From the IMG/VR virus record IMGVR_UViG_2690316086_000003, positions 1-13,866 of that record: a stretch of DNA of 13,866 nucleotides; one strand, written 5' to 3'. Positions 1,009-8,859 of this stretch are shown here, piece after piece. The notes beneath the pieces are model-generated. The model ran no database searches. It saw nothing but the letters and a program-made list of their open reading frames with translations, and had not been told where the DNA came from. The position numbers and the translations under genes are program-made. The number at the start of each line of letters is the position of its first letter. The stretch's first letter is position 1. Source of the stretch: a virus. Taxonomy: Duplodnaviria; Heunggongvirae; Uroviricota; Caudoviricetes.

Positions 1009-1575
1009 TATCGCGTCCTCAACAATGAATTTTGTGATGCAGTGCCTGGTGCCTCCAGGTGACGTTAACCAGTTAACAATTAACGCCGGATACAGAGAAT
1101 CCACCCATAACACTGTTTTTGGTTTTAACTGTTCCGCGTGCGCATAGCCGCATTCACCGCATCACAAAATTCACTTTAAAAAGGGCGGCAGAGCAGCCAC
1201 GGAGTAAAACTGATACCGCCAAACGTCACCAGAAAATTGATAACAGAGGGCGTTGCAGCGGGGTTGTCACTTAAGCGTATGGTCAACCTGACAACCCGGT
1301 GTCCTCAACGGGGAAGAAATAACCCCGCCATACTTACCGCCGCGCCATTTCGCGGAGTGCCACAACCGGAAGCGCACGGTCGACGAAAATTTAACGACAG
1401 GCTATCTATGAACCAGCAACCTCGCCGTGCGCTTTCGCGTTATGCTCTGACTTTTCAGAGAAATATCCTTTCAGTAAACTGTCAGTGCCGGATGTTCACC
1501 CGTGTCCGGCGCACGCACTCCACTTTACCCGTGGAGAACTCCTTAATTACCAACCTTAGCTTCGTTGGTTAGCTA

Positions 1576-1794
1576 TTAACGCGGGTATGTAATCATGCTG
1601 GCAATGCTTAATGCCGCTGCTTTTTCCAGATTGGTGATATCCTGCTCCAGAGCGGACAGATTTTCAGCCTGCTTAGCCCTGGCTTCATTGGCCCATTTCA
1701 GATCCTGCGCTGCATTAATTTTCTGGTGCATCCACTCATAAAGTTCATCATCGGTATAGTCTGGCGCGATGATGACGGGTTCTCGTTTCTGCAT
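1576..1794 (-). CDS. small hypothetical early-left operon protein (72 aa)
   Basis: ORF-track entry MQKREPVIIAPDYTDDELYEWMHQKINAAQDLKW...; ATG preceded by GAGGA with a 6-nt spacer. It lies in the same leftward operon as the two small genes upstream of it. Confidence 0.55.
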   Translation of the reverse strand: MQKREPVIIAPDYTDDELYEWMHQKINAAQDLKWANEARAKQAENLSALEQDITNLEKAAALSIASMITYPR

Positions 1795-1824
1795 ACTGAT
1801 TCCTCGCGGTGCTGTTTTCGCTTA

Positions 1825-1953
1825 TCAGCCGTTAGATTTTGCCGAGCTGGAAAGCGCCTGTTTAAATTCGCTGAAGCTGAGAGCTTCTTCGCCTTCGGCA
1901 AGGCCTTCGAAGTATTCTTCGTAAGCCTTTTCCATGATTGTGTCGAAATCCAT
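1825..1953 (-). CDS. small hypothetical protein (42 aa), Rac-type YdaF/YdaG-like position
   Basis: Hand translation gives MDFDTIMEKAYEEYFEGLAEGEEALSFSEFKQALSSSAKSNG. AGGTGG sits 5 nt upstream of the ATG, inside the 3' end of the preceding gene. Too short for the ORF track. Confidence 0.45.
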   Translation of the reverse strand: MDFDTIMEKAYEEYFEGLAEGEEALSFSEFKQALSSSAKSNG

Positions 1954-1954
1954 A

Positions 1955-2110
1955 TCACCCACCTGAATTTCTTTCCAGCCAGCGACGCGCTCCAGATTCG
2001 GTTTTAAACGTTTTGCTTTTGGTATACGTCATCGCGGTGAACGTACCGTCCTGGTTGGGGAACACGCCACATACCAGAGATTCGCTGTTGCCAAGATCGA
2101 TAGTATCCAT
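1955..2110 (-). CDS. small hypothetical protein (51 aa), Rac-type YdaF/YdaG-like position
   Basis: Internal ATG of track ORF 1955..2191 with GAGG 5 nt upstream. Product MDTIDLGNSESLVCGVFPNQDGTFTAMTYTKSKTFKTESGARRWLERNSGG. It is the first gene downstream of the leftward promoter next to the repressor gene. Confidence 0.5.
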   Translation of the reverse strand: MDTIDLGNSESLVCGVFPNQDGTFTAMTYTKSKTFKTESGARRWLERNSGG

Positions 2111-2291
2111 GCTGACCTCATTTCCCCTTAACGCCGGGGTAGCGGAACAAAAACCTGCTGCATAGTTATTAAAGTTGAACCCTGCCGTCATGTTCTTACG
2201 CCTCGGGCTGGCTACTTAACCCCTGACCACTGCCTGGTAACTCGAGGTATTGCCCTGTATTGTGTGGGACGGGATGGGTTGGTATGGGAAA

Positions 2292-2357
2292 ACTATAGGA
2301 AATGCCTAATTACTTGTCAATAGGCTATGCCTAATAATTTGGGCGCGACCTAATAGG
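2292..2357 (-). promoter_or_regulatory. pL-like leftward sigma70 promoter with repressor operator inverted repeats
   Basis: On the minus strand: -35 TTGACA (complement of 2315-2320), 17-nt spacer, -10 TATAGT (complement of 2292-2297). Inverted repeats TAGGA-aat-GCCTA (2296-2308), TAGGC-tat-GCCTA (2321-2333) and ACCTA-a-TAGGT (2347-2357) overlap or flank the promoter. Confidence 0.5.
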
Positions 2358-2428
2358 TGATGGTTTGTGGGAGAGGTAGTAGGAGTTAACTAACGGGAAC
2401 TAGGAATTTCCCGTCGGACCATATAAGT

Positions 2429-2905
2429 TTAAGTTCCTGTCTTGGTGATGTTCTGGCTTTTCCGTTTTGATTCTTGATTTTTCAGATAGTTAGCTACCTT
2501 CATTTCCATTGCGGCAATGTAGGCGCGAACGTCATGATCAACCCAACTAGGCTCCGTAGCATTTCCAGATAAGAGGAAAGCCACAATTGCTCTTTTTTCA
2601 TCAGAGGCGGCTTGATAAAGGCTGTTTATGTCTAAAAGTTCACTTTTTGTATCTGAAGTGGATGGGGTTGGTATGGGGTATTCGTTAAGCCCCCAATGCT
2701 CTGGACCAACCACATCAGAAAAGAAACGCCATAGTTCTGGAAGTTTGTCTTTACTTATCGAACCTTTCTTAATCCAGTCATGGATTGATGGTGGTTGGAC
2801 TTTGAAATGACGTGCGATTTCCGCCTTTGATTTGACGGCTCCTGATGCAATTTTTTTGTTAATGGCCTGCTCTATCGCTCGGCCTAAGTCTTTACCACTA
2901 AGCAT
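2429..2905 (-). CDS. racR: prophage repressor, RacR-like (CI-type HTH repressor)
   Basis: 158-aa ORF MLSGKDLGRAIEQAINKKIASGAVKSKAEIARHFKVQPPSIHDWIKKG... with an HTH near residues 24-47. AGGAGA RBS upstream. Divergent from a Cro-like gene. Length and sequence match my memory of Rac prophage RacR. Confidence 0.85.
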   Translation of the reverse strand: MLSGKDLGRAIEQAINKKIASGAVKSKAEIARHFKVQPPSIHDWIKKGSISKDKLPELWRFFSDVVGPEHWGLNEYPIPTPSTSDTKSELLDINSLYQAASDEKRAIVAFLLSGNATEPSWVDHDVRAYIAAMEMKVANYLKNQESKRKSQNITKTGT

Positions 2906-2958
2906 TGCTTAATAGTCTCCTATGCGCATCGCGTTAGGCAATCCCTACTCTCGATGTG

Positions 2959-3002
2959 TTAGGCATAGCCTATTGACAATTGTATTAGGCTAAGCCTAAT
3001 AT
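2959..3002 (+). promoter_or_regulatory. pR-like rightward sigma70 promoter with repressor operator inverted repeats
   Basis: -35 TTGACA (2973-2978), 18-nt spacer, -10 TAATAT (2997-3002). Operator inverted repeats TAGGC-ata-GCCTA (2960-2972) and ATTAGGCT-a-AGCCTAAT (2984-3000). The block 2959-2979 is the exact reverse complement of 2314-2334. Confidence 0.55.
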
Positions 3003-3029
3003 TGTTGCGTGTTTTTTGGAGTTCATTCG

Positions 3030-3353
3030 ATGAAAAAAGATAACTATTCATTCAAACGAGCTTGTGCTGTTGTCGGTGGGCAATCAGCAATGGCTAGGCT
3101 TTTAGGTGTATCTCCTCCAAGCGTAAATCAATGGATCAAAGGTGTACGTCAGTTGCCTGCTGAGAGATGTCCTGCGATTGAACGAGCAACAAAAGGTGGT
3201 GTCCTGTGTGAAGAACTTCGTCCTGATGTTGATTGGACATACTTACGACGCTCGTCATGTTATTCGCAGAATATGTCGATGAAGCAACCAAATGACGAAA
3301 ACGATCATACCCGAAGCATCAAGAGGCAAATGATTCATGAAAATCAAACATGA
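3030..3353 (+). CDS. ydaS: Cro-like HTH regulator, YdaS-like
   Basis: ATG at 3030 with GGAG 8 nt upstream; the track ORF begins at an upstream GTG. HTH segment GGQSAMARLLGVSPPSVNQWIKG. Divergent from the repressor gene, in the Rac-type order racR-ydaS-ydaT. Confidence 0.7.
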   Translation: MKKDNYSFKRACAVVGGQSAMARLLGVSPPSVNQWIKGVRQLPAERCPAIERATKGGVLCEELRPDVDWTYLRRSSCYSQNMSMKQPNDENDHTRSIKRQMIHENQT

Positions 3354-3762
3354 GCACATCCGCATGGCGATGAATGCCTGGGCATACCCTGATGGTGAGA
3401 AAGTTCCTGCAGCTGAAATAGCCCGGACTTATTTCGAACTGGGGATGACGTTCCCTGAACTGTACGACGACAGCCATCCGGAAGCCCTGGCCCGTAATAC
3501 ACAGAAAATTTTCCGTTGGCTGGATAAAGACACCCCTGATGCTGTTGAAAAAATTCAGGCTCTGTTACCGGCGATCGAAAAGGCAATGCCGCCTCTGCTG
3601 GTGGCCCGTATGCGCAGTCACAGCTCTGAGTATTACCGGGAGATTGTCGAACGGCGGGATCGGCTGGTGAAGGATGTCGACGATTTTGTTGCGTCAGCGG
3701 TTGTTTTGTATGACCAGATGAATCGCGGCGGCCCGGCAGGGAATGCTGTGGTGATGCACTAA
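3337..3762 (+). CDS. ydaT: YdaT-like protein (partner of YdaS in Rac-type prophages)
   Basis: ORF of about 140 aa, MKIKHEHIRMAMNAWAYPDGEKVPAAEIARTYFELGMTF..., overlapping the 3' end of the ydaS-like gene by 17 nt. Length and position match YdaT as I recall it. Confidence 0.7.
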   Translation: MKIKHEHIRMAMNAWAYPDGEKVPAAEIARTYFELGMTFPELYDDSHPEALARNTQKIFRWLDKDTPDAVEKIQALLPAIEKAMPPLLVARMRSHSSEYYREIVERRDRLVKDVDDFVASAVVLYDQMNRGGPAGNAVVMH

Positions 3763-3784
3763 AAGCACGGTGTTCGGGGGTTTT

Positions 3785-4747
3785 ATGAGCAGCAAGCTTC
3801 ATGGTCTTGTCTGGGAAGGGTGCGCCTTCACCGGCATGATCTTATCCAGGGTGGCGGTTATGGCCCGTCTTGCAGACTACAGCAATGACGAGGGTGTGTC
3901 ATGGCCTGCCATTGAAACTATCCGGCGTCAGATCGGTGCAAGAAGTGAATCCACAGTGAAATCGGCTATTGCAGAACTGGCGAAAGAGGGCTGGCTGACG
4001 AAGGAAGAGCGTAAGGTCGGTGGGCGTAATGTAAGCAATATCTATCGGCTTAATGTGGAAAAACTCGAAGCAGCAGCTGCGGCGGCGCGTGAGTCATATA
4101 AACCGAAAAGAAAAATTAGCCCGGCAAAAAATGACCAGTTAACAGTTGACCCGTCAAATATTGCCCCCTCAACGGTTGACCCGTCAAATTTTGATGGATC
4201 AACTGTTGATAAAAAACTGCCGATTAGGGGGGCGATGATTGACCCCGATCCGTCAGTATTAAAACCTGATCCGTCAGATAAAAGATCTTCTTGTCCGGAC
4301 GCTTCGCAACCGGACCCGCAGACGGCTGAACAGGATTTTTTAACCCGACACCCTGACGCGGTTGTGTTCAGTGCGAAAAAACGCCAGTGGGGAAGTCAGG
4401 AAGATTTGGTGTGCGCACAGTGGATCTGGGGACGAATCGTGAGTCTTTACGAGCAGGCGGCCAGCTATGATGGCGAGATCACTAGACCGAAAGAACCCAA
4501 CTGGACAGCATGGGCCAATGACGTTCGCACAATGCGGATGCTGGATGGCAGAACTCACAGACAAATTTGTGAAATGTTTGGGCGTCTCCAGCGGGATTCG
4601 TTCTGGGTAAAAAACATCATGAGTCCGGCAAAACTCCGGGAAAAATGGGATGAACTGGTTATCCGCCTGGGGCGTTCGCCTGCGCAGCGTTGCGTGAATC
4701 ACATTTCTGAACCGGACACTGAAATTCCGCCGGGCTTCAGGGGGTAA
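3785..4747 (+). CDS. phage replication initiator, lambda O-like / YdaU-like (N-terminal HTH domain, low-complexity linker, C-terminal domain)
   Basis: ATG at 3785 preceded by a GGGGG run; the track ORF starts at an upstream GTG at 3770. The N-terminal region (...SRVAVMARLADYSNDEGVSWPAIETIRRQIGARSESTVKSAIAELAKEGWLTKE...) looks like a replication-protein HTH. The central linker is encoded by the direct DNA repeats listed below. The position after the cro-like genes matches the replication module. Confidence 0.7.
   Translation: MSSKLHGLVWEGCAFTGMILSRVAVMARLADYSNDEGVSWPAIETIRRQIGARSESTVKSAIAELAKEGWLTKEERKVGGRNVSNIYRLNVEKLEAAAAAARESYKPKRKISPAKNDQLTVDPSNIAPSTVDPSNFDGSTVDKKLPIRGAMIDPDPSVLKPDPSDKRSSCPDASQPDPQTAEQDFLTRHPDAVVFSAKKRQWGSQEDLVCAQWIWGRIVSLYEQAASYDGEITRPKEPNWTAWANDVRTMRMLDGRTHRQICEMFGRLQRDSFWVKNIMSPAKLREKWDELVIRLGRSPAQRCVNHISEPDTEIPPGFRG
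4138..4277. repeat. iteron-like repeat cluster inside the replication-initiator gene (putative ori)
   Basis: Exact 15-bp direct repeat GTTGACCCGTCAAAT at 4145-4159 and 4175-4189, each containing the palindrome TTGAC-cc-GTCAA. Related palindrome TCAAC-t-GTTGA at 4199-4209. GATCCGTCAG repeated at 4247-4256 and 4268-4277. GTTAAC at 4138-4143. Confidence 0.45.
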
Positions 4748-4787
4748 GTGTTAATTTCTGGTCATGAGGTAACTTTCAGGAGGGCTT

Positions 4788-5210
4788 GTGGCAAAAGTTT
4801 TTACACAAGAAGAGCGGGAAAAAATTAAAGGGCAGGTTGTTGAACTCGTACGCCAGAGTGGGCGCGAGACGTTACGACAACTGGAAACTAAAACTGGGGC
4901 AACAAGATATCTGATGAGCGTTCTGGCCAGAGAGCTGGTTGCCAGTGGCGATGTATACAATTCTGGCTACGGGTTATTCCCGTCTGAACAGGCTCGTAAA
5001 GACTGGCAAAATGCCCGCAAAAAACTCTCAAGGGCAAAGCTGAAGAAACCATCTGCGGTTGATCCGGACCTTATCTGGTCATTACCAGATGGCGAAATAC
5101 GCCGCTACGACAGGCGTCTGAACATAATCTGTCTCGAGTGCCGGAAGAGCGAAGTTATGCAGCGCGTACTGGCGTTTTATCAGGGGAATTTTGAGGAGGT
5201 GGTGCGGTGA
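4788..5210 (+). CDS. hypothetical protein (140 aa), replication-module position
   Basis: GTG start with AGGAGG 5 nt upstream. Product MAKVFTQEEREKIKGQVVELVRQSGRETLRQLETKTGATRYL.... Stop overlaps the next start (GTGA). Confidence 0.6.
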   Translation: MAKVFTQEEREKIKGQVVELVRQSGRETLRQLETKTGATRYLMSVLARELVASGDVYNSGYGLFPSEQARKDWQNARKKLSRAKLKKPSAVDPDLIWSLPDGEIRRYDRRLNIICLECRKSEVMQRVLAFYQGNFEEVVR

Positions 5211-5461
5211 GTGAATCAAAATGCCAGGTTAATGGCAACAAGATAGAACCATGTGCAGCACTGGCAAAGTCCCTTGAGCATGATGCTGAATACACGATGC
5301 GAAAAGGTCTGCTGATATACAAAATCTGGAATGAGAGTTTAACTCGCGGTCCTGATTTTGTGATGTTGCGTTCCGGTGAATTTTCTAAATTACCAGTTCG
5401 GGTTTCATTTTGTCCGTTCTGTGGTGAAAGTCTGAAAACGTGGGAGAACAGAAATGAATGA
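5207..5461 (+). CDS. hypothetical small protein (84 aa) with Cys pairs C6/C16 and C69-P-F-C72 (possible zinc ribbon)
   Basis: GTG start overlaps the upstream stop, with GAGGAGG 7 nt upstream. The four Cys are arranged C-x9-C ... C-x2-C. Its 3' end overlaps the next start (ATGAATGA). Confidence 0.55.
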   Translation: MSESKCQVNGNKIEPCAALAKSLEHDAEYTMRKGLLIYKIWNESLTRGPDFVMLRSGEFSKLPVRVSFCPFCGESLKTWENRNE

Positions 5462-5765
5462 AATTAAAGAAATACCAGTAGTACGTGATGAATATGGCTG
5501 CTGGACGCATCCTGAATATGAAAAATTCTGTGACGGTCGGGAATATATTTCAACGGAAGAGTTTAACGCCTGGATGGAGGAAAATAATCTTCAATACGTC
5601 CTCTGCTTCAGAGATGAAGGATGTGCTGACCTTGATGCGTGTGATGCTGATATTTCTGCATGGGAACCGGAACGACCAGAGGGCAATGGATGGTTTATTG
5701 GTTCAATACATGACACCGAAGATGGCCCGGTTTGTGTATGGCTGAGAAATAAGGCCGAAGCATAA
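5454..5765 (+). CDS. hypothetical Cys-rich acidic protein (103 aa)
   Basis: ATG overlaps the preceding stop. Product MNEIKEIPVVRDEYGCWTHPEYEKFCDGREYISTEEF.... It is the last gene before the AT-rich island. Confidence 0.6.
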   Translation: MNEIKEIPVVRDEYGCWTHPEYEKFCDGREYISTEEFNAWMEENNLQYVLCFRDEGCADLDACDADISAWEPERPEGNGWFIGSIHDTEDGPVCVWLRNKAEA

Positions 5766-6070
5766 AGGCTATAAACCGACTAACAACTAAATACTGAAGA
5801 TTTAAATCAGAAACGATTTTTATTAAATCCTTAACCGGAGGGATTCTGCACCCTCAGAACATCAGGAGGCCGTCTGAAAGGGCGGAACAGATAATGCTTA
5901 CGTTGAAACATTTTATCGACATACCAACATGGTTAGCCGTCATTGCTTTTGTTAAAATACACATCCACTTTTCTGTGCAATGTTTAACCACTGGTCATAT
6001 CAAATGGCATTCATGCGAACCATGATATAGAATCATGGCTTGAGAGAGTCGATGAAAGCGCAACTATGGT

Positions 6071-6649
6071 ATGAGAGACATTGATGTAAGAAAGGCTGTG
6101 CATGCCAAGATTCTGAGAGATCATCATAAAGATCCTGACACCCTAATCATTGATGAGTTTACGATGAATCTAGGGGCTAGCAGAGCTGATATAGCAGTGA
6201 TCAATGGGCTTATACATGGTTATGAGTTGAAGAGCAAGAGTGATAACTTGCTCAGATTACCAGCGCAGGTGCAACATTACTCATCAGTGATGGATAAAGT
6301 AACTTTGGTTGTCTCTGATTGCCATCTTTATGATGCTTTAAGCATAGTTCCATCATGGTGGGGGATAAAGCAAGTTACGCAAGGTGCACGGCAAGGTATC
6401 CATTTAAAAACAATTCGAACTAGCAAGTTGAATCCACAAGTGGACAAACTTTCCTTAACAATGCTTCTTTGGAAAGATGAATTGCTTTCCCTATTAAGTG
6501 ATGTAGGGGAGCTACAGAATTTGAAAAATAAACCTAAACGCGTCTTATGGTCAAAACTCGCCAATAGTATGGATGTTGGCGAGCTTCGTGAAGCTGTTCG
6601 AGTTAAACTTAAAGCCCGTAAAGAGTGGCGAGTTGCTCAACAACCTTAG
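6071..6649 (+). CDS. hypothetical protein with PD-(D/E)xK-like nuclease motif; recalled as 'sce7726-family-like'
   Basis: 192-aa ORF with AT-rich codon usage. Motif arrangement E29 (IIDEF), D40 (RADIAVI), E52-L-K54 (GYELKSK), which is the classic order for the restriction-endonuclease-like fold. Family assignment is from memory only. Confidence 0.7.
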   Translation: MRDIDVRKAVHAKILRDHHKDPDTLIIDEFTMNLGASRADIAVINGLIHGYELKSKSDNLLRLPAQVQHYSSVMDKVTLVVSDCHLYDALSIVPSWWGIKQVTQGARQGIHLKTIRTSKLNPQVDKLSLTMLLWKDELLSLLSDVGELQNLKNKPKRVLWSKLANSMDVGELREAVRVKLKARKEWRVAQQP

Positions 6650-7706
6650 TTATGTGATGGTTTTGCCCAATCCTACGCCATACCTCTGGGCTACCAAATT
6701 TATAGTTACCAGAGGGATTGGCTTTGTAGGCTTGATACTCGTTTGCATAATATTCTATGTCTCTATCTCCCGCACAGAATGTAGGCCCTGAATATTCTCG
6801 ATGAGCAAGAATATCCTCACTATGTTTACCATATTGTTCATAACCAAAGCGATTAGCTACTCTTCCTCGAAATACCCAAAAGTCATTATCTCCAGAGTAT
6901 CTGACGCTGGCAGATACGCTAGGGAATCGCGTCGAAAGCCTATTAAAGTCGGGGTGCTGTACTCCATAATCACTATAAATCACATTTCTGGCAAGTTCTT
7001 TTCTATTCATTAAACTCTGCCATAAAATCCACTCGATTCGAGGTTGAGAATATAGACCAACAGAAATATCACTGAGATCTGTAGGAAATGAACCCCCAGA
7101 AAGAATCACTTTTCTGTATTCATTGAGGTGCGCCAGATTGTTTATCAATCCCATTGCCAAAGTATATAGTTCGCCGGAATTAATTTTATCCTCGGTTAAC
7201 TCATCTCTTAAGTCAATAATTATATCAATATTTGATAAAGGAATTCCCAGATGATTAATGTAATGCGTTATTAATTGTGGGTTAACCAGATCTAACGTGG
7301 TTAATCTCAAGCATATTTCATTCTGCATTAATTCATCAATCGCTCTTTTATAGTTAGATGGGCGAGTTGGTGAACTGACAGGAATAACTCTTATCCCCAT
7401 ATCTCTAACTTGATTAACCGCATTTATTATAGGGTAATGATCTTCAGGAGAAATAAAATGCTCTTCAATTAATAATCCATCAATATAAACACCTTGCATA
7501 TCTGAGCAAGATTTTGAGACTTTCTTTCCGAACTCTATAAGAGTCTCGTTATAACTCTTTAAGGCAATACCTGAATCAGGGTCAATTGGCACTGGTTCAA
7601 TTTCGAGTAATGGCAAAATTTTTGATTTCTTTTCAATGGATAGCTGCGATAAAGCTGATAACTCAGAACGTTTCGCTTTCAGAATAGGAATATATGAAAT
7701 TGTCAT
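6609..7706 (-). CDS. hypothetical protein, recalled as 'beta protein / sce7725-family-like' (function unknown)
   Basis: 365-aa ORF, MTISYIPILKAKRSELSALSQLS..., AT-rich, with AAGG about 8 nt upstream of the ATG. Convergent with the 192-aa gene and overlapping its 3' end by 41 bp. The N-terminal Y-x-P-I-L-K-x-K motif matches my recollection of this family. Confidence 0.8.
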   Translation of the reverse strand: MTISYIPILKAKRSELSALSQLSIEKKSKILPLLEIEPVPIDPDSGIALKSYNETLIEFGKKVSKSCSDMQGVYIDGLLIEEHFISPEDHYPIINAVNQVRDMGIRVIPVSSPTRPSNYKRAIDELMQNEICLRLTTLDLVNPQLITHYINHLGIPLSNIDIIIDLRDELTEDKINSGELYTLAMGLINNLAHLNEYRKVILSGGSFPTDLSDISVGLYSQPRIEWILWQSLMNRKELARNVIYSDYGVQHPDFNRLSTRFPSVSASVRYSGDNDFWVFRGRVANRFGYEQYGKHSEDILAHREYSGPTFCAGDRDIEYYANEYQAYKANPSGNYKFGSPEVWRRIGQNHHITKVVEQLATLYGL

Positions 7707-8263
7707 GTTAATACCTTATACAGAATCAATTAACAATTAATGGTTCTTCGGACATTGAAATTTATATCGCAAAAATTGGCAAACTCTCCTCGACTACTCA
7801 CTTGTGGGTATCCTGGCGTAAAAGGAATGACTTGGCAATACCCGGTGTGATCATAAGTCATTGAAAATGATCATTTTTATCAGTCTTTCTTCCATGATGA
7901 ATGCTAATGCCATTTGATTTGTTGAGGTGAAAACTGTTAAAAATCAAAACGATGTAATTGAAATGAACGTTCGGTAGCATTCACGCTTTAAATGTTTCTT
8001 TTGTGCTGATTGGATGAATTTGGGTCACTTATGATGAGAGATGTTGCAGGAAAAGAAGTTGGCATTGATCTATTGGATAGTTAGAATTGCTGCGGGTGCT
8101 TGAGGCTATCTGCCTCAGGTATGAACACCAAAAGGCAGATAGAGAAAAGCCCCAGTTAACATTACGCGTCCGGCAAGACGCTTAACATTAATCTGAGGCC
8201 AATTTCATGCTTTGCACATGTAGGTTAGCCTCTTACGTGCCGAAAGGCAAGGAGAAGCAGGCT

Positions 8264-8419
8264 ATGAAGCAGCAAAAGGCGATGTTAATCGCCCTGATCG
8301 TCATCTGTTTAACCGTCATAGTGACGGCACTGGTAACGAGGAAAGACCTCTGCGAGGTACGAATCCGAACCGGCCAGACGGAGGTCGCTGTCTTCACAGC
8401 TTACGAACCTGAGGAGTAA
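8264..8419 (+). CDS. hokD: Hok/Gef-family small membrane toxin (51 aa)
   Basis: Product MKQQKAMLIALIVICLTVIVTALVTRKDLCEVRIRTGQTEVAVFTAYEPEE, with one transmembrane helix and the LCEVR signature. GGAG lies 9 nt upstream. The track ORF at 8207 is an in-frame upstream extension. The sequence matches HokD/RelF as I recall it. Confidence 0.8.
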   Translation: MKQQKAMLIALIVICLTVIVTALVTRKDLCEVRIRTGQTEVAVFTAYEPEE

Positions 8420-8487
8420 GAGACCAGGCGAGGGAGAAATCCCTCGCCACCTCTGATGAGTCAGGCATCCTCAACGCACCCGCACTT

Positions 8488-8515
8488 AACCCGCTTCGGC
8501 GGGTTTTGTTTTTTC
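8488..8515 (+). terminator. rho-independent terminator downstream of hok
   Basis: Stem AACCCGC (8488-8494), loop TTCG, stem GCGGGTT (8499-8505), then a T-rich run TTTTGTTTTTT. The hairpin GGCGAGGGA-gaaa-TCCCTCGCC at 8427-8448 lies just upstream. Confidence 0.7.
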
Positions 8516-8586
8516 CTGGCATTCTGGTTTACAATTCGCACGTCAGCCTGAACACCTGACACCTGCTGCGCCAGCAGAGAAAACAG

Positions 8587-8859
8587 ATGGTGCACAAAAC
8601 CAAATTTCACAATTCTGATACCGACCTTGCCATCCGGCATGGGCGGCGTTCACACGCATTTAAAACCGACTGGTACCAACACCCATCATGTACTGAAGAA
8701 CAGGCCGAATGGCTAATTCATAACTACCGCAGACGCGGATACGAGATTAAGAAAGCCCTCAGCCTCGATTATCGTCACTGGATAATCTATGTCAGGCTCC
8801 CTTATTCCGAACGCTCACCGCGCCCATCCCGCACATACCAGCAACGGATCTGGAGGTAA
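8587..8859 (+). CDS. hypothetical protein (90 aa), Qin-type Rem-like position
   Basis: ATG at 8587. Its stop TAA (8857-8859) lies inside the RBS-to-start region of the DUF968 gene. It sits between hok and the DUF968 gene, like rem in the Qin prophage as I recall it. No confident homology. Confidence 0.5.
   Translation: MVHKTKFHNSDTDLAIRHGRRSHAFKTDWYQHPSCTEEQAEWLIHNYRRRGYEIKKALSLDYRHWIIYVRLPYSERSPRPSRTYQQRIWR

What the first reader, a model, noticed from the sequence alone, without database searches (positions are those of the whole stretch)
8101..8515. Hok-family toxin locus with 5' and 3' mRNA fold elements directly abutting the island
The 51-aa product is a Hok/Gef-type membrane toxin. Upstream, overlapping alternative hairpins (TGAGGC-tatct-GCCTCA at 8101-8117; CTATCTGCC at 8106-8114 pairing with GGCAGATAG at 8134-8142) resemble the metastable 5' structures of hok mRNAs. 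Downstream, a 9-bp hairpin (8427-8448) and a terminator (8488-8515) resemble the fold-back 3' end. A direct repeat TTAACATTA (8155-8163 and 8182-8190) flanks a small hairpin in the leader. No relBE-like genes precede it, so this copy may be independently regulated by a Sok-like antisense RNA.
Basis: partly seen in the sequence, partly recalled or inferred. Interest (0 to 1): 0.45.

Follow-up and report, generated by a model that had tools for sequence, protein, structure and literature searches.

The report
Complete prophage hokD/sok toxin-antitoxin locus
This is an ordinary, already-described prophage "host-killing" toxin gene (hokD, a close relative of the tested hokW-sokW) with all its RNA control elements intact, including the small antisense RNA gene that keeps the toxin switched off.

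Summary
Window 8059-8515 is a complete hok/mok/sok type I toxin-antitoxin locus in a Rac/Qin-type lambdoid prophage, 100% identical to E. coli O103 ML775. The 51-aa toxin (8264-8419) carries the same protein accession as K-12 HokD/RelF. The leader matches Rfam RF01794 at 119 bits against a threshold of 59. The locus is 93% identical to mokW/hokW/sokW of phages 933W and VT2-Sakai, which was shown experimentally to be a working Sok-controlled system. Transferring that annotation places Sok at 8145-8215 on the minus strand. Its -10 (TAACCT, 8227-8222) is the element whose mutation abolished sokW function. The "direct repeat" TTAACATTA is the two arms of Sok's terminator stem. K-12 hokD is a truncated version that keeps only 14 nt upstream of the ATG. 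At least 80% of the locus occurs in 3828 of 5426 complete E. coli genomes. One unplanned observation deserves follow-up: a 23-nt hypervariable block (8199-8221) encoding Sok's 5' tail and its target-hairpin top.

The parts
8059..8087 (+). hok/mok mRNA promoter: -35 TTGGCA (8059-8064), 17-nt spacer, -10 TAGAAT (8082-8087)
   Evidence: This is the only sigma-70-like site in 7950-8650, matching 10 of 12 positions. TAGAAT is near-invariant across 147 related loci. TTG-type -35 hexamers sit at the same 17-nt spacing in most of the different upstream contexts. Homology with other loci begins at 8082.
8094..8513 (+). Full-length hok mRNA (inferred +1 about 8094, ending after the terminator)
   Evidence: The Rfam RF01794 match starts at 8094. 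The promoter spacing fits this start. MFE is -174.7 kcal/mol, z=-8.1. The ends were not mapped experimentally.
8094..8106 (+). tac (translational activator element) at the 5' end of the mRNA
   Evidence: It pairs with fbi in the full-length fold and with 8147-8153 in the truncated fold. The motif GGGTGCTTGAGGCT is found in 147 of 154 related loci.
8096..8122 (+).
   Evidence: -17.6 kcal/mol, z=-4.4. It is 100% paired across 66 unique loci, and the variable positions 8113, 8117 and 8120 change only between G-C, G-U and A-U pairs.
8133..8153 (+).
   Evidence: The Rfam consensus structure includes this stem. The 8094-8153 fold is -28.3 kcal/mol, z=-5.4. It is 93.9% paired across 66 loci, with an A-U to G-C double change at 8108:8140 in 4 loci. 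In the full-length fold 8149-8153 pairs with the mok SD instead.
8145..8215 (-). Sok antisense RNA gene (71 nt, coordinates transferred from annotated sokW)
   Evidence: sokW is annotated as a misc_RNA at L003/L004 1563-1633(-). It was mapped through alignment A2, using mokW 1625 to 8207 and hokW 1682 to 8264 as anchors. The 78-nt minus-strand fold is -31.9 kcal/mol, z=-4.7. PMC8621323 reports a 71-nt sokW detected by Northern blot.
8222..8250 (-). Sok promoter: -35 TTGCCT (8250-8245), 17-nt spacer, -10 TAACCT (8227-8222)
   Evidence: Read directly from the minus strand. It falls below the simple scan's threshold. The sequence is identical to hokW-sokW. Primers YO-421/422 of PMC8621323 mutate exactly this -10 (TAACCTA to GAGCCGG), and that mutation abolished sokW's antitoxin activity.
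8153..8195 (-).
   Evidence: -16.2 kcal/mol on the minus strand (z=-4.05) against -10.4 on the plus strand, because G.U pairs in Sok are C.A mismatches in the mRNA. The columns are 99.6% paired read as Sok and 83.3% read as mRNA. The short-hairpin alleles show compensatory changes at 8155:8193, 8157:8190 and 8158:8189.
8195..8198 (+). mok Shine-Dalgarno (GAGG), 8 nt upstream of the mok ATG
   Evidence: Seen directly in the sequence. It is invariant across 66 loci (pi=0). In the full-length fold it is sequestered by 8149-8153.
8207..8419 (+). mok ORF (70 aa), here an in-frame N-terminal extension of Hok
   Evidence: Listed as an ORF. The same start position is annotated as mokW in 933W and VT2-Sakai. 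The ATG is conserved in 137 of 138 loci.
8195..8233 (+). Sok-target hairpin (GAGGC...GCCUC) carrying the mok SD and AUG; its upper stem and loop form the hypervariable block 8199-8221
   Evidence: This is the third hairpin of the Rfam model. Seventeen of the 18 distinct 8194-8236 segments fold into a hairpin of -11.5 to -15.5 kcal/mol; one singleton folds at -9.6. Block pi is 0.303, against 0.012 at hok third-codon positions.
8264..8419 (+). hok (hokD) toxin ORF, 51 aa, with SD AGGAG at 8250-8254
   Evidence: PF01848 E=1.2e-23. The identical genome annotates it as hokD with protein WP_000813254.1, the same accession as K-12-lineage HokD.
8427..8448 (+). 3'-UTR 9-bp hairpin (candidate barrier to, or end-point of, 3' processing)
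   Evidence: Perfect inverted repeat I6. The helix region is 98.5% paired, with A-U, G-U and G-C all seen at 8431:8444. Its role is inferred.
8469..8484 (+). fbi (fold-back inhibitory element), pairing with the mRNA 5' end
   Evidence: 8476-8484 is 9/9 complementary to 8091-8099, and 8457-8474 is 78% complementary to 8100-8117 (I5 and I2). Twelve tac-fbi pairs appear in the MFE. They are 100% paired in 66 loci, with two G-C to G-U changes.
8488..8515 (+). Rho-independent terminator of the hok mRNA
   Evidence: A 7-bp stem (5 G-C), 4-nt loop and T-run; it is the only terminator-like site in the region. Homology with most related loci ends at about 8508-8513.

Best explanation
Window 8059-8515 is a complete hok/mok/sok type I toxin-antitoxin module. 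It is the full-length form of hokD and a close allele of phage hokW-sokW. It sits in the nin region of a Rac/Qin-type lambdoid prophage, between a two-gene accessory island and rem/ydfU. The inferred mechanism follows the Gerdes model. A promoter at 8059-8087 makes a roughly 420-nt mRNA. While it is being made, the 5' tac element is trapped in a metastable hairpin (8096-8122). In the finished RNA, tac pairs with fbi (8469-8484) near the 3' end. The GCCCC box (8149-8153) then sequesters the mok ribosome-binding site, so the RNA is stable but silent. Slow 3' trimming removes fbi. Tac then refolds onto 8133-8153, which frees the mok SD/AUG in a hairpin (8195-8233) that is also the Sok target. A constitutive but unstable 71-nt antisense RNA, Sok (8215 to 8145, minus strand), pairs there. 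This blocks mok translation, and hence translation of Hok (here the same reading frame as mok; coupled translation in the R1 model), and triggers RNase III cleavage. If Sok transcription stops through prophage loss, prophage induction or host transcription shut-off, Sok decays. The processed mRNA is then translated and the 51-aa Hok peptide depolarises the inner membrane. What is shown here is the presence, arrangement, conservation and covariation of every sequence element, and near-identity to a tested locus. What is inferred is transcription, 3' processing, Sok instability and toxicity of this particular copy.
For: The Hok/Gef domain matches at E=1.2e-23. The protein accession is identical to K-12 HokD, and the HokD CDS was toxic when expressed (bioRxiv 10.1101/2025.08.07.668861). 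Rfam RF01794 covers 8094-8269 end to end (model positions 1-157 of 157) at 119.1 bits, E=3e-27. Window 8082-8491 is 93.4% identical to mokW/hokW/sokW of VT2-Sakai and 933W, where sokW is annotated as a 71-nt minus-strand RNA. PMC8621323 shows that HokW is toxic and that sokW from its own promoter neutralises it. It also shows dependence on RNase III and Hfq, and that sokW disappears and HokW appears after mitomycin C. The sokW -10 mutated in that study is identical in the window. Tac-fbi pairing appears in the MFE (z=-8.1) and is 100% maintained in 66 unique loci. The tac-stem and the metastable hairpin are both maintained, and every substitution is compatible with both folds. Predicted folds reproduce the switch of 8147-8153 from the mok SD to tac when the 3' end is removed. 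The Sok stem is more stable on the Sok strand and shows compensatory changes. The mok ATG is conserved in 137 of 138 loci. At least 80% of the locus occurs in 3828 of 5426 complete E. coli genomes.
Against: There are no expression data for this copy. The Sok -10 (TAACCT) matches only 3 of 6 consensus positions and the generic promoter scan missed it. According to the preprint's summary of earlier work, native chromosomal hokA, hokB and hokC loci did not mediate post-segregational killing. The MFE of the truncated RNA beyond the 5' domain is not a reliable model and does not cleanly show an open mok SD. The window has a private C-to-T change at 8120, which weakens one metastable-hairpin pair to G.U. 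HokW differs from this Hok at 4 C-terminal residues, and hokW lacks this locus's terminator, so function is transferred by homology and not by identity.
Confidence: 0.9

Rival explanations
1. The locus is structurally complete but is a functionally silent relic, as earlier work proposed for chromosomal hok loci. On this reading Sok or hok is not expressed at useful levels, and the sequence persists only by hitch-hiking in prophages.
For: The preprint summarises earlier work in which native chromosomal hokA, hokB and hokC loci gave no post-segregational killing and no rifampicin activation. The K-12 copy of this same gene has lost its whole leader. The Sok -10 is a weak 3-of-6 match.
Against: All ORFs and RNA elements are intact. 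Substitutions across 66 unique loci preserve pairing in three mutually exclusive helices, which indicates ongoing purifying selection on RNA structure. The mok ATG, the Sok +1 and the -10 stay invariant inside an otherwise hypervariable block. The 93%-identical hokW-sokW, with an identical Sok promoter, is functional.
Confidence: 0.08
2. The TTAACATTA...TTAACATTA unit (8156-8190) is the footprint of a small insertion with a 9-bp target duplication that interrupts the sok gene, leaving hok without a working antitoxin.
For: It is an exact 9-nt direct repeat spaced 26 nt apart. Rfam aligns 16 nt here as an insertion relative to its consensus. One allele class (PPompW-type) and the other hok families have a hairpin about 21 nt shorter at this position.
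Against: The unit folds into one continuous 18-bp stem on the Sok strand (-16.2 kcal/mol, z=-4.05). It is present in the functional hokW-sokW and lies inside the annotated 71-nt sokW. It is 99.6% paired across loci. The short and long versions also differ in their flanks, so they are not related by a simple insertion. At most this explains the evolutionary origin of a longer Sok stem, not an inactivation.
Confidence: 0.03
3. Hok expression here is driven mainly by read-through transcription from the neighbouring prophage or island genes, as in the K-12 relB-relE-hokD arrangement. The Sok-like features would then be vestigial.
For: In K-12, hokD sits directly behind relBE with only 14 nt of its own leader. 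Prophage early-region transcription runs in the + direction through this region.
Against: The gene immediately upstream (Beta protein, 6609-7706) is on the opposite strand. The locus has its own 10-of-12 promoter positioned to start at the conserved tac 5' end, which must be a free 5' end for the tac-fbi logic. The -10 TAGAAT is near-invariant across different upstream contexts.
Confidence: 0.04

Closest known systems
hokW-sokW (mokW/hokW/sokW) of Stx2 phages 933W and VT2-Sakai (Sp5), characterised in PMC8621323
   Same: It is 93.4% identical over window 8082-8491. It has the same tac, tac-stem, long Sok hairpin, Sok promoter (identical from 8216 to 8250), mok start, hok SD, 3' hairpin and fbi. 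Sok length and position transfer directly. Both are prophage-borne.
   Different: Seven substitutions fall in the 21 nt that encode Sok's 5' tail (GGCCAATTTCATGCTTTGCAC against GGCTCAATCCATGCTGAACAC). Hok differs at 4 C-terminal residues (TAYEPEE against VDYESEK). hokW lacks the window's terminator 8488-8505. The phage position also differs: hokW lies near the right end of a Stx phage beside a YgiW-like gene, whereas this copy lies in the nin region before rem/ydfU.
hokD (relF) of E. coli K-12 Qin prophage
   Same: The Hok protein has the identical accession, WP_000813254.1. It is 98.1% identical over window 8250-8513. The downstream synteny (rem, ydfU/DUF968) is the same.
   Different: K-12 keeps only 14 nt upstream of the ATG. 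The promoter, tac, ucb, Sok gene and mok start are replaced by relB-relE. The window copy is the complete, autonomously regulated form.
hok/sok (parB) of plasmid R1, the paradigm of the family
   Same: The set and order of elements is the same: tac, metastable hairpin, ucb, Sok gene antisense to the mok translation-initiation region, mok overlapping hok, fbi, and a 3' end that must be processed (definitions from PMC9841398; Rfam match).
   Different: The Hok sequence is divergent; HokW, a close relative of this Hok, is 44% identical to R1 Hok. In the window mok is in frame with hok. My recollection, not checked here, is that R1 mok is in a different frame. The Sok stem is longer here. The locus is prophage-borne rather than plasmid-borne.

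Membership tests
[quoted passage not shown] | Small hydrophobic Hok/Gef toxin ORF (about 50 aa, Pfam PF01848) | tested here: met
   The 51-aa ORF at 8264-8419 scores 82.9 bits against a cut-off of 22, E=1.2e-23. NCBI annotates it as hokD.
[quoted passage not shown] | mok reading frame that starts upstream of hok, overlaps it and has its own SD | tested here: met
   ORF 8207-8419 with GAGG at 8195-8198. It is homologous to annotated mokW. The ATG is conserved in 137 of 138 loci.
[quoted passage not shown] | cis-encoded antisense Sok RNA gene with its own promoter and terminator, complementary to the mok translation-initiation region | tested here: met
   At sequence level, -35 TTGCCT, a 17-nt spacer and -10 TAACCT are followed by a 71-nt unit ending in a stem-loop plus GGGGCUUUU. 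The promoter is identical to the experimentally mutated sokW promoter. Expression itself was not tested.
[quoted passage not shown] | Long-range tac-fbi pairing between the 5' and 3' ends of the full-length mRNA | tested here: met
   8091-8099 and 8476-8484 are 9/9 complementary. Twelve pairs appear in the MFE, z=-8.1. They are 100% paired in 66 loci.
[quoted passage not shown] | Alternative tac-ucb stem in the 3'-truncated mRNA, and sequestration of the mok SD by ucb in the full-length mRNA | tested here: met
   The Rfam consensus stem is present. The fold has z=-5.4. Pair 8108:8140 covaries A-U to G-C. In predicted folds, 8149-8153 pairs with the mok SD in the full-length RNA and 8147-8153 pairs with tac in the truncated RNA. 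These are predictions only.
[quoted passage not shown] | Metastable 5' hairpin in the nascent transcript (tac paired with the adjacent downstream segment) | tested here: met
   8096-8122 folds at -17.6 kcal/mol, z=-4.4. It is 100% paired in 66 loci.
[quoted passage not shown] | Slow 3' processing of the mRNA, short Sok half-life and RNase III cleavage of the duplex | not testable with these tools
   This needs RNA work. RNase III and Hfq dependence were shown for the homologous hokW-sokW (PMC8621323).
[quoted passage not shown] | Toxicity of Hok and its neutralisation by Sok | not testable with these tools
   The literature covers only the identical HokD CDS and the 93%-identical hokW-sokW locus.
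Rfam RF01794 ('sok', in fact the hok mRNA leader) | Score at or above the gathering threshold over the full model | tested here: met
   119.1 bits against 59, model positions 1-157 of 157, + strand, 8094-8269.

The most novel reading that the evidence does not exclude
The 23-nt block 8199-8221 encodes Sok nucleotides 2-16, the short segment just upstream of Sok's start, and the top of the Sok-target hairpin in the mRNA. It may be a specificity determinant under diversifying or balancing selection. On this reading the many hokD/hokW-type copies that co-reside in one E. coli genome (median 2, up to 11) would each answer only to their own Sok. That would resemble how antisense-RNA loops set plasmid incompatibility groups or how Sib RNAs discriminate among ibs targets. 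The evidence does not exclude this. There are 24 discrete alleles among 138 loci. Block diversity is 25 times that of hok third-codon positions, while the start codon, Sok +1 and -10 stay fixed. The hairpin is preserved in nearly every allele. Cognate 20-nt duplexes average -35.5 kcal/mol against -17.5 for non-cognate pairs. Alleles also swap on flanks that are more than 99% identical. I found no description of this in the papers I could search.
Probability: 0.3. Interest if true: 0.5.

Novelty: already known. Interest (0 to 1): 0.15.

Why it matters
As a finding it mainly confirms a correct annotation: a known prophage type I toxin-antitoxin module in its complete form. That has some practical use. 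This strain's hokD, unlike the K-12 reference copy, carries its own promoter, Sok gene and fold-back switch. It should therefore be treated as a potentially active killer or lysis-timing module when the prophage is induced or lost, as was shown for hokW-sokW. The side observation could matter more. If the hypervariable Sok 5'-tail/target-loop block sets specificity, it would explain how E. coli tolerates many near-identical hok/sok copies without cross-regulation. It would also supply a natural set of orthogonal antisense/target pairs.

Tried and rejected
(1) I looked for hokW in the early region of Sakai Sp5, in an unannotated gap at L002 13117-13569. Alignment showed no homology. The locus lies near the other end of the phage and was recovered through the phage collection instead. 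(2) I scanned genome contigs with the 14-mer GGGTGCTTGAGGCT. Only a handful of enterobacterial loci were real. (3) I tested whether co-resident copies carry different block alleles. Only 4 same-isolate pairs were available. Three of the 4 differ, but 90% of random pairs differ too, so the test has no power. (4) The generic promoter scan did not find the Sok promoter. It was identified by reading the minus strand and by homology to the mutated sokW -10. (5) I folded the UACG (Tyr47) region as a possible TadA-type editing hairpin. The predicted structure is only -0.6 kcal/mol in the window, so I did not pursue it. (6) The MFE of the 3'-truncated mRNA reproduces the tac-stem, but the remainder of that fold is not trustworthy, and I draw no conclusion about a dcb element. 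(7) I considered and rejected the idea that the TTAACATTA repeat marks an inactivating insertion (see rival explanations).
Full report
**What is in the sequence**

The window is a Rac/Qin-type lambdoid prophage. Around the finding (window 8060-8560) it is 100% identical to the chromosome of E. coli O103 strain ML775 (H1). That record's annotation covers the whole window. It lists dicB, ydfC, ydfB, racR, ydaS/ydaT-like genes and replication genes. These are followed by a convergent pair, an sce7726-family protein and a beta-family protein. Then come hokD, a hypothetical protein, a DUF968 (ydfU-like) gene, rusA and later genes. Rfam also finds DicF at 1183-1234 on the minus strand. The first TTAACATTA copy is at 8156-8164, and the hok ORF is 8264-8419. 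My first attempt with 8265 as the start failed, and the corrected run is.

**The toxin**

The 51-aa product matches Pfam Hok/Gef at E=1.2e-23. In ML775 the protein is WP_000813254.1, the same accession as HokD in a K-12-lineage strain. The toxin is therefore identical to HokD/RelF. The HokD coding sequence was one of the toxic positive controls in a recent Hok survey (bioRxiv 10.1101/2025.08.07.668861). A 70-aa ORF starting at ATG 8207 reads in frame into hok. It corresponds to the annotated mokW of phages 933W and VT2-Sakai.

**The mRNA switch**

The element definitions used here come from PMC9841398.

- **Promoter and start.** A sigma-70-type promoter, TTGGCA-17-TAGAAT at 8059-8087, is the only promoter-like site in 7950-8650. 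It would start transcription near 8094, where the Rfam RF01794 match begins (8094-8269, 119.1 bits against a gathering score of 59, full model length). That Rfam family is named "sok", but it matches the plus strand. Its consensus structure is the 5' domain of the hok mRNA, not the antisense RNA.
- **Metastable hairpin.** This fits the metastable structure in which tac pairs with the segment immediately downstream.
- **Fold-back element.** The full 422-nt transcript folds with its first 12 nt paired to 8469-8481 (z=-8.1). Separately, 8091-8099 is perfectly complementary to 8476-8484. This is the fold-back inhibitory element.
- **The switch.** In the full-length fold, the mok Shine-Dalgarno (GAGG, 8195-8198) is paired with GCCCC at 8149-8153. 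When the 3' end is removed in silico, 8147-8153 pairs with tac instead. This reproduces the published logic for the ucb/anti-SD box. I do not trust the rest of the truncated fold.

**The antisense RNA**

The locus is 93.4% identical over 8082-8491 to VT2-Sakai and 933W, where mokW, hokW and a 71-nt minus-strand sokW are annotated. Transferring coordinates through the alignment places Sok at window 8145-8215 on the minus strand. Upstream on that strand are -35 TTGCCT (8250-8245), a 17-nt spacer and -10 TAACCT (8227-8222). Six nucleotides then separate the -10 from the start at G8215.

The generic scan missed this promoter because the -10 matches only 3 of 6 consensus positions. The sequence from 8216 to 8250 is nevertheless identical to hokW-sokW. 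Takada et al. (PMC8621323) showed four things:

- HokW is toxic.
- sokW from its own promoter neutralises it, and promoter mutations abolish that protection.
- The system depends on RNase III and Hfq.
- sokW disappears and HokW appears after mitomycin C.

Their mutagenesis primers YO-421/422 convert TAGGTTA to CCGGCTC on the plus strand. On the Sok strand this is TAACCTA to GAGCCGG, which is exactly this -10. Their sokW Northern probe covers Sok's first 30 nt.

**The "direct repeat"**

TTAACATTA...TTAACATTA and the small hairpin between the copies form one long stem-loop at 8153-8195. It is clearly more stable on the minus strand (-16.2 kcal/mol, z=-4.05) than on the plus strand (-10.4). The reason is that the two A/C oppositions in the mRNA are G.U pairs in Sok. 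On the Sok strand the stem is followed by GGGGCUUUU. This matches my recollection of the R1 Sok 3' end, which I did not check with a tool. It is therefore Sok's terminator stem.

**Comparative support**

Two IMG/VR searches, one with this Hok and one with HokW, returned 159 distinct loci.

- Of 154 usable loci, 147 carry the tac motif and so have the full leader.
- In an alignment of 66 unique full-length loci, tac-fbi is 100% paired.
- The metastable hairpin is also 100% paired.
- The tac-stem is 93.9% paired, with an A-U to G-C double change at 8108:8140.
- The variable positions 8113 and 8117 change only in ways compatible with both alternative helices.
- The Sok stem columns are 99.6% paired when read as Sok and 83.3% when read as mRNA.
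- A short-hairpin allele class (PPompW type) has compensatory changes at three base pairs.
- A few loci from other genera (Citrobacter, Rahnella and others) show the same layout with short Sok hairpins, and an E. albertii hokD copy carries the long one.

**Relation to K-12 hokD**

K-12-lineage genomes match the window only from 8250 onward (H26-H28). There relB-relE abut hokD, and the same rem/ydfU genes follow. The window copy is thus the complete, autonomously regulated form of a gene whose reference copy is truncated. It is also the common form. At least 80% of 8060-8560 is present in 3828 of 5426 complete E. coli genomes, with a median of 2 and a maximum of 11 places per genome.

**Verdict on the finding**

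Whether this particular copy is expressed and toxic remains inferred.

**Noticed beyond the finding**

Within the otherwise near-invariant locus, positions 8199-8221 are hypervariable. Mean pairwise diversity among the 66 unique loci is 0.303. It is 0.012 at hok third-codon positions, 0.064 in the rest of the leader and 0.062 in the 3' UTR (profile). One caveat applies: these loci were selected for an identical Hok protein, which depresses CDS diversity.

Inside the block, the mok ATG (8207-8209), the Sok start (8215-8216) and four of the six -10 positions are invariant. There are 24 discrete alleles among 138 loci, and the window's allele occurs 11 times. Major alleles differ at 4-10 of 20 positions. 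Seventeen of the 18 distinct 8194-8236 segments fold into a target hairpin of -11.5 to -15.5 kcal/mol, and one singleton folds at -9.6. Duplexes between Sok's first 20 nt and the target average -35.5 kcal/mol for cognate pairs and -17.5 for non-cognate pairs.

Four loci share the window's island-side flank at more than 99% identity. Three of them carry 9-12 differences packed into 8201-8224. Allele exchange or rapid diversification is therefore localised to this block. It encodes Sok's single-stranded 5' tail and the top of its target hairpin, so it is a candidate specificity determinant.

Two things weaken this reading. The remaining roughly 50 nt of Sok are invariant and complementary to all alleles. 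My same-genome test also had no power. I found no discussion of this block in the searchable literature. The 2025-26 Hok survey explicitly left Sok and mRNA elements aside.

**Other side observations**

- mok takes three forms among alleles: in-frame (113 loci), a 19-aa ORF ending at an ATGA overlap with hok (14), and a 68-aa +1-frame ORF (10).
- The island proteins match PADLOC models: PD-Lambda-2_C for the Beta protein (E=1.8e-41) and "cll" for the sce7726-family protein.
- Homology with most other hok loci begins at 8082, between the -35 and the -10. The -35 therefore belongs to the variable flank, yet a TTG-type hexamer is kept at the same spacing in most contexts.

Noticed in passing
window 8199-8221 (both strands); related loci L007-L086 and L207-L285: A hypervariable 23-nt block lies inside an otherwise near-invariant hokD/hokW locus. 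Its pi is 0.30 against 0.012 at hok third-codon positions. There are 24 discrete alleles in 138 loci. The mok ATG, Sok +1 and -10 are invariant within it, and the target hairpin is preserved in nearly every allele. Alleles differ on flanks that are more than 99% identical. The block encodes Sok's 5' tail and the top of its target hairpin, so it may determine Sok/hok specificity.
   Followed up: partly
window 6071-6649 (+) and 6609-7706 (-): The 'island' abutting hok is a convergent, slightly overlapping gene pair. One gene is an sce7726-family protein (NF033832, 191 bits; PADLOC 'cll', E=2e-28). The other is a Pfam Beta_protein (PF14350, E=4e-52) that matches PADLOC PD-Lambda-2_C (E=1.8e-41). 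This looks like a candidate anti-phage defence moron next to the toxin-antitoxin locus.
   Followed up: partly
window 1183-1234 (-): A full-length DicF sRNA is present (Rfam RF00039, 75 bits against a threshold of 48). It is consistent with the Qin/Rac-type dicB region annotated in the identical genome.
   Followed up: no
window 8120: The window (and the identical ML775 genome) has T where all 65 other unique related loci have C. This turns the G8098:C8120 pair of the metastable hairpin into G.U. It also creates a U-A pair at 8120:8127 in the tac-stem fold, where the others have a C.A mismatch.
   Followed up: partly
window 8207-8263 and related loci: mok has three architectures among otherwise similar loci. 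It is an in-frame N-terminal extension of Hok in 113 loci, including the window. It is a 19-aa ORF whose stop overlaps the hok start (ATGA) in 14 loci. It is a 68-aa ORF in another frame in 10 P1-like loci. The start position is conserved but the product is not.
   Followed up: partly
window 8082 (junction) and 8508-8513: Homology with most other hok loci starts between the -35 and -10 of the hok promoter and ends at the terminator. The module therefore sits between variable flanks, and at least five different upstream contexts were seen. Most contexts supply a TTG-type -35 at the same 17-nt spacing.
   Followed up: partly
window 8094-8269 (+): Rfam RF01794 is named 'sok antitoxin' but matches the hok-mRNA strand, and its consensus structure is the mRNA 5' domain (tac-stem, Sok-complement hairpin, target hairpin). 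The real Sok gene is on the opposite strand. Automated annotation from this model would therefore give the wrong strand.
   Followed up: yes
window 8402-8405: Tyr47 is encoded by UAC followed by G, within UUACGAA. From my own knowledge this resembles the tRNA-Arg anticodon loop that TadA targets; I did not check it with a tool. The Hok survey preprint says hokD mRNA undergoes A-to-I recoding of this type to create the second cysteine. The motif is invariant in 66 loci, but the local hairpin predicted here is weak at -0.6 kcal/mol.
   Followed up: partly
window 8461-8640 (-) and 8587-8859 (+): The identical genome annotates two 'hypothetical protein' ORFs here. The minus-strand one (59 aa) overlaps the hok fbi and terminator and is probably spurious. 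The plus-strand one (90 aa) occupies the position of rem in K-12 but has no Pfam or NCBIfam hit.
   Followed up: no
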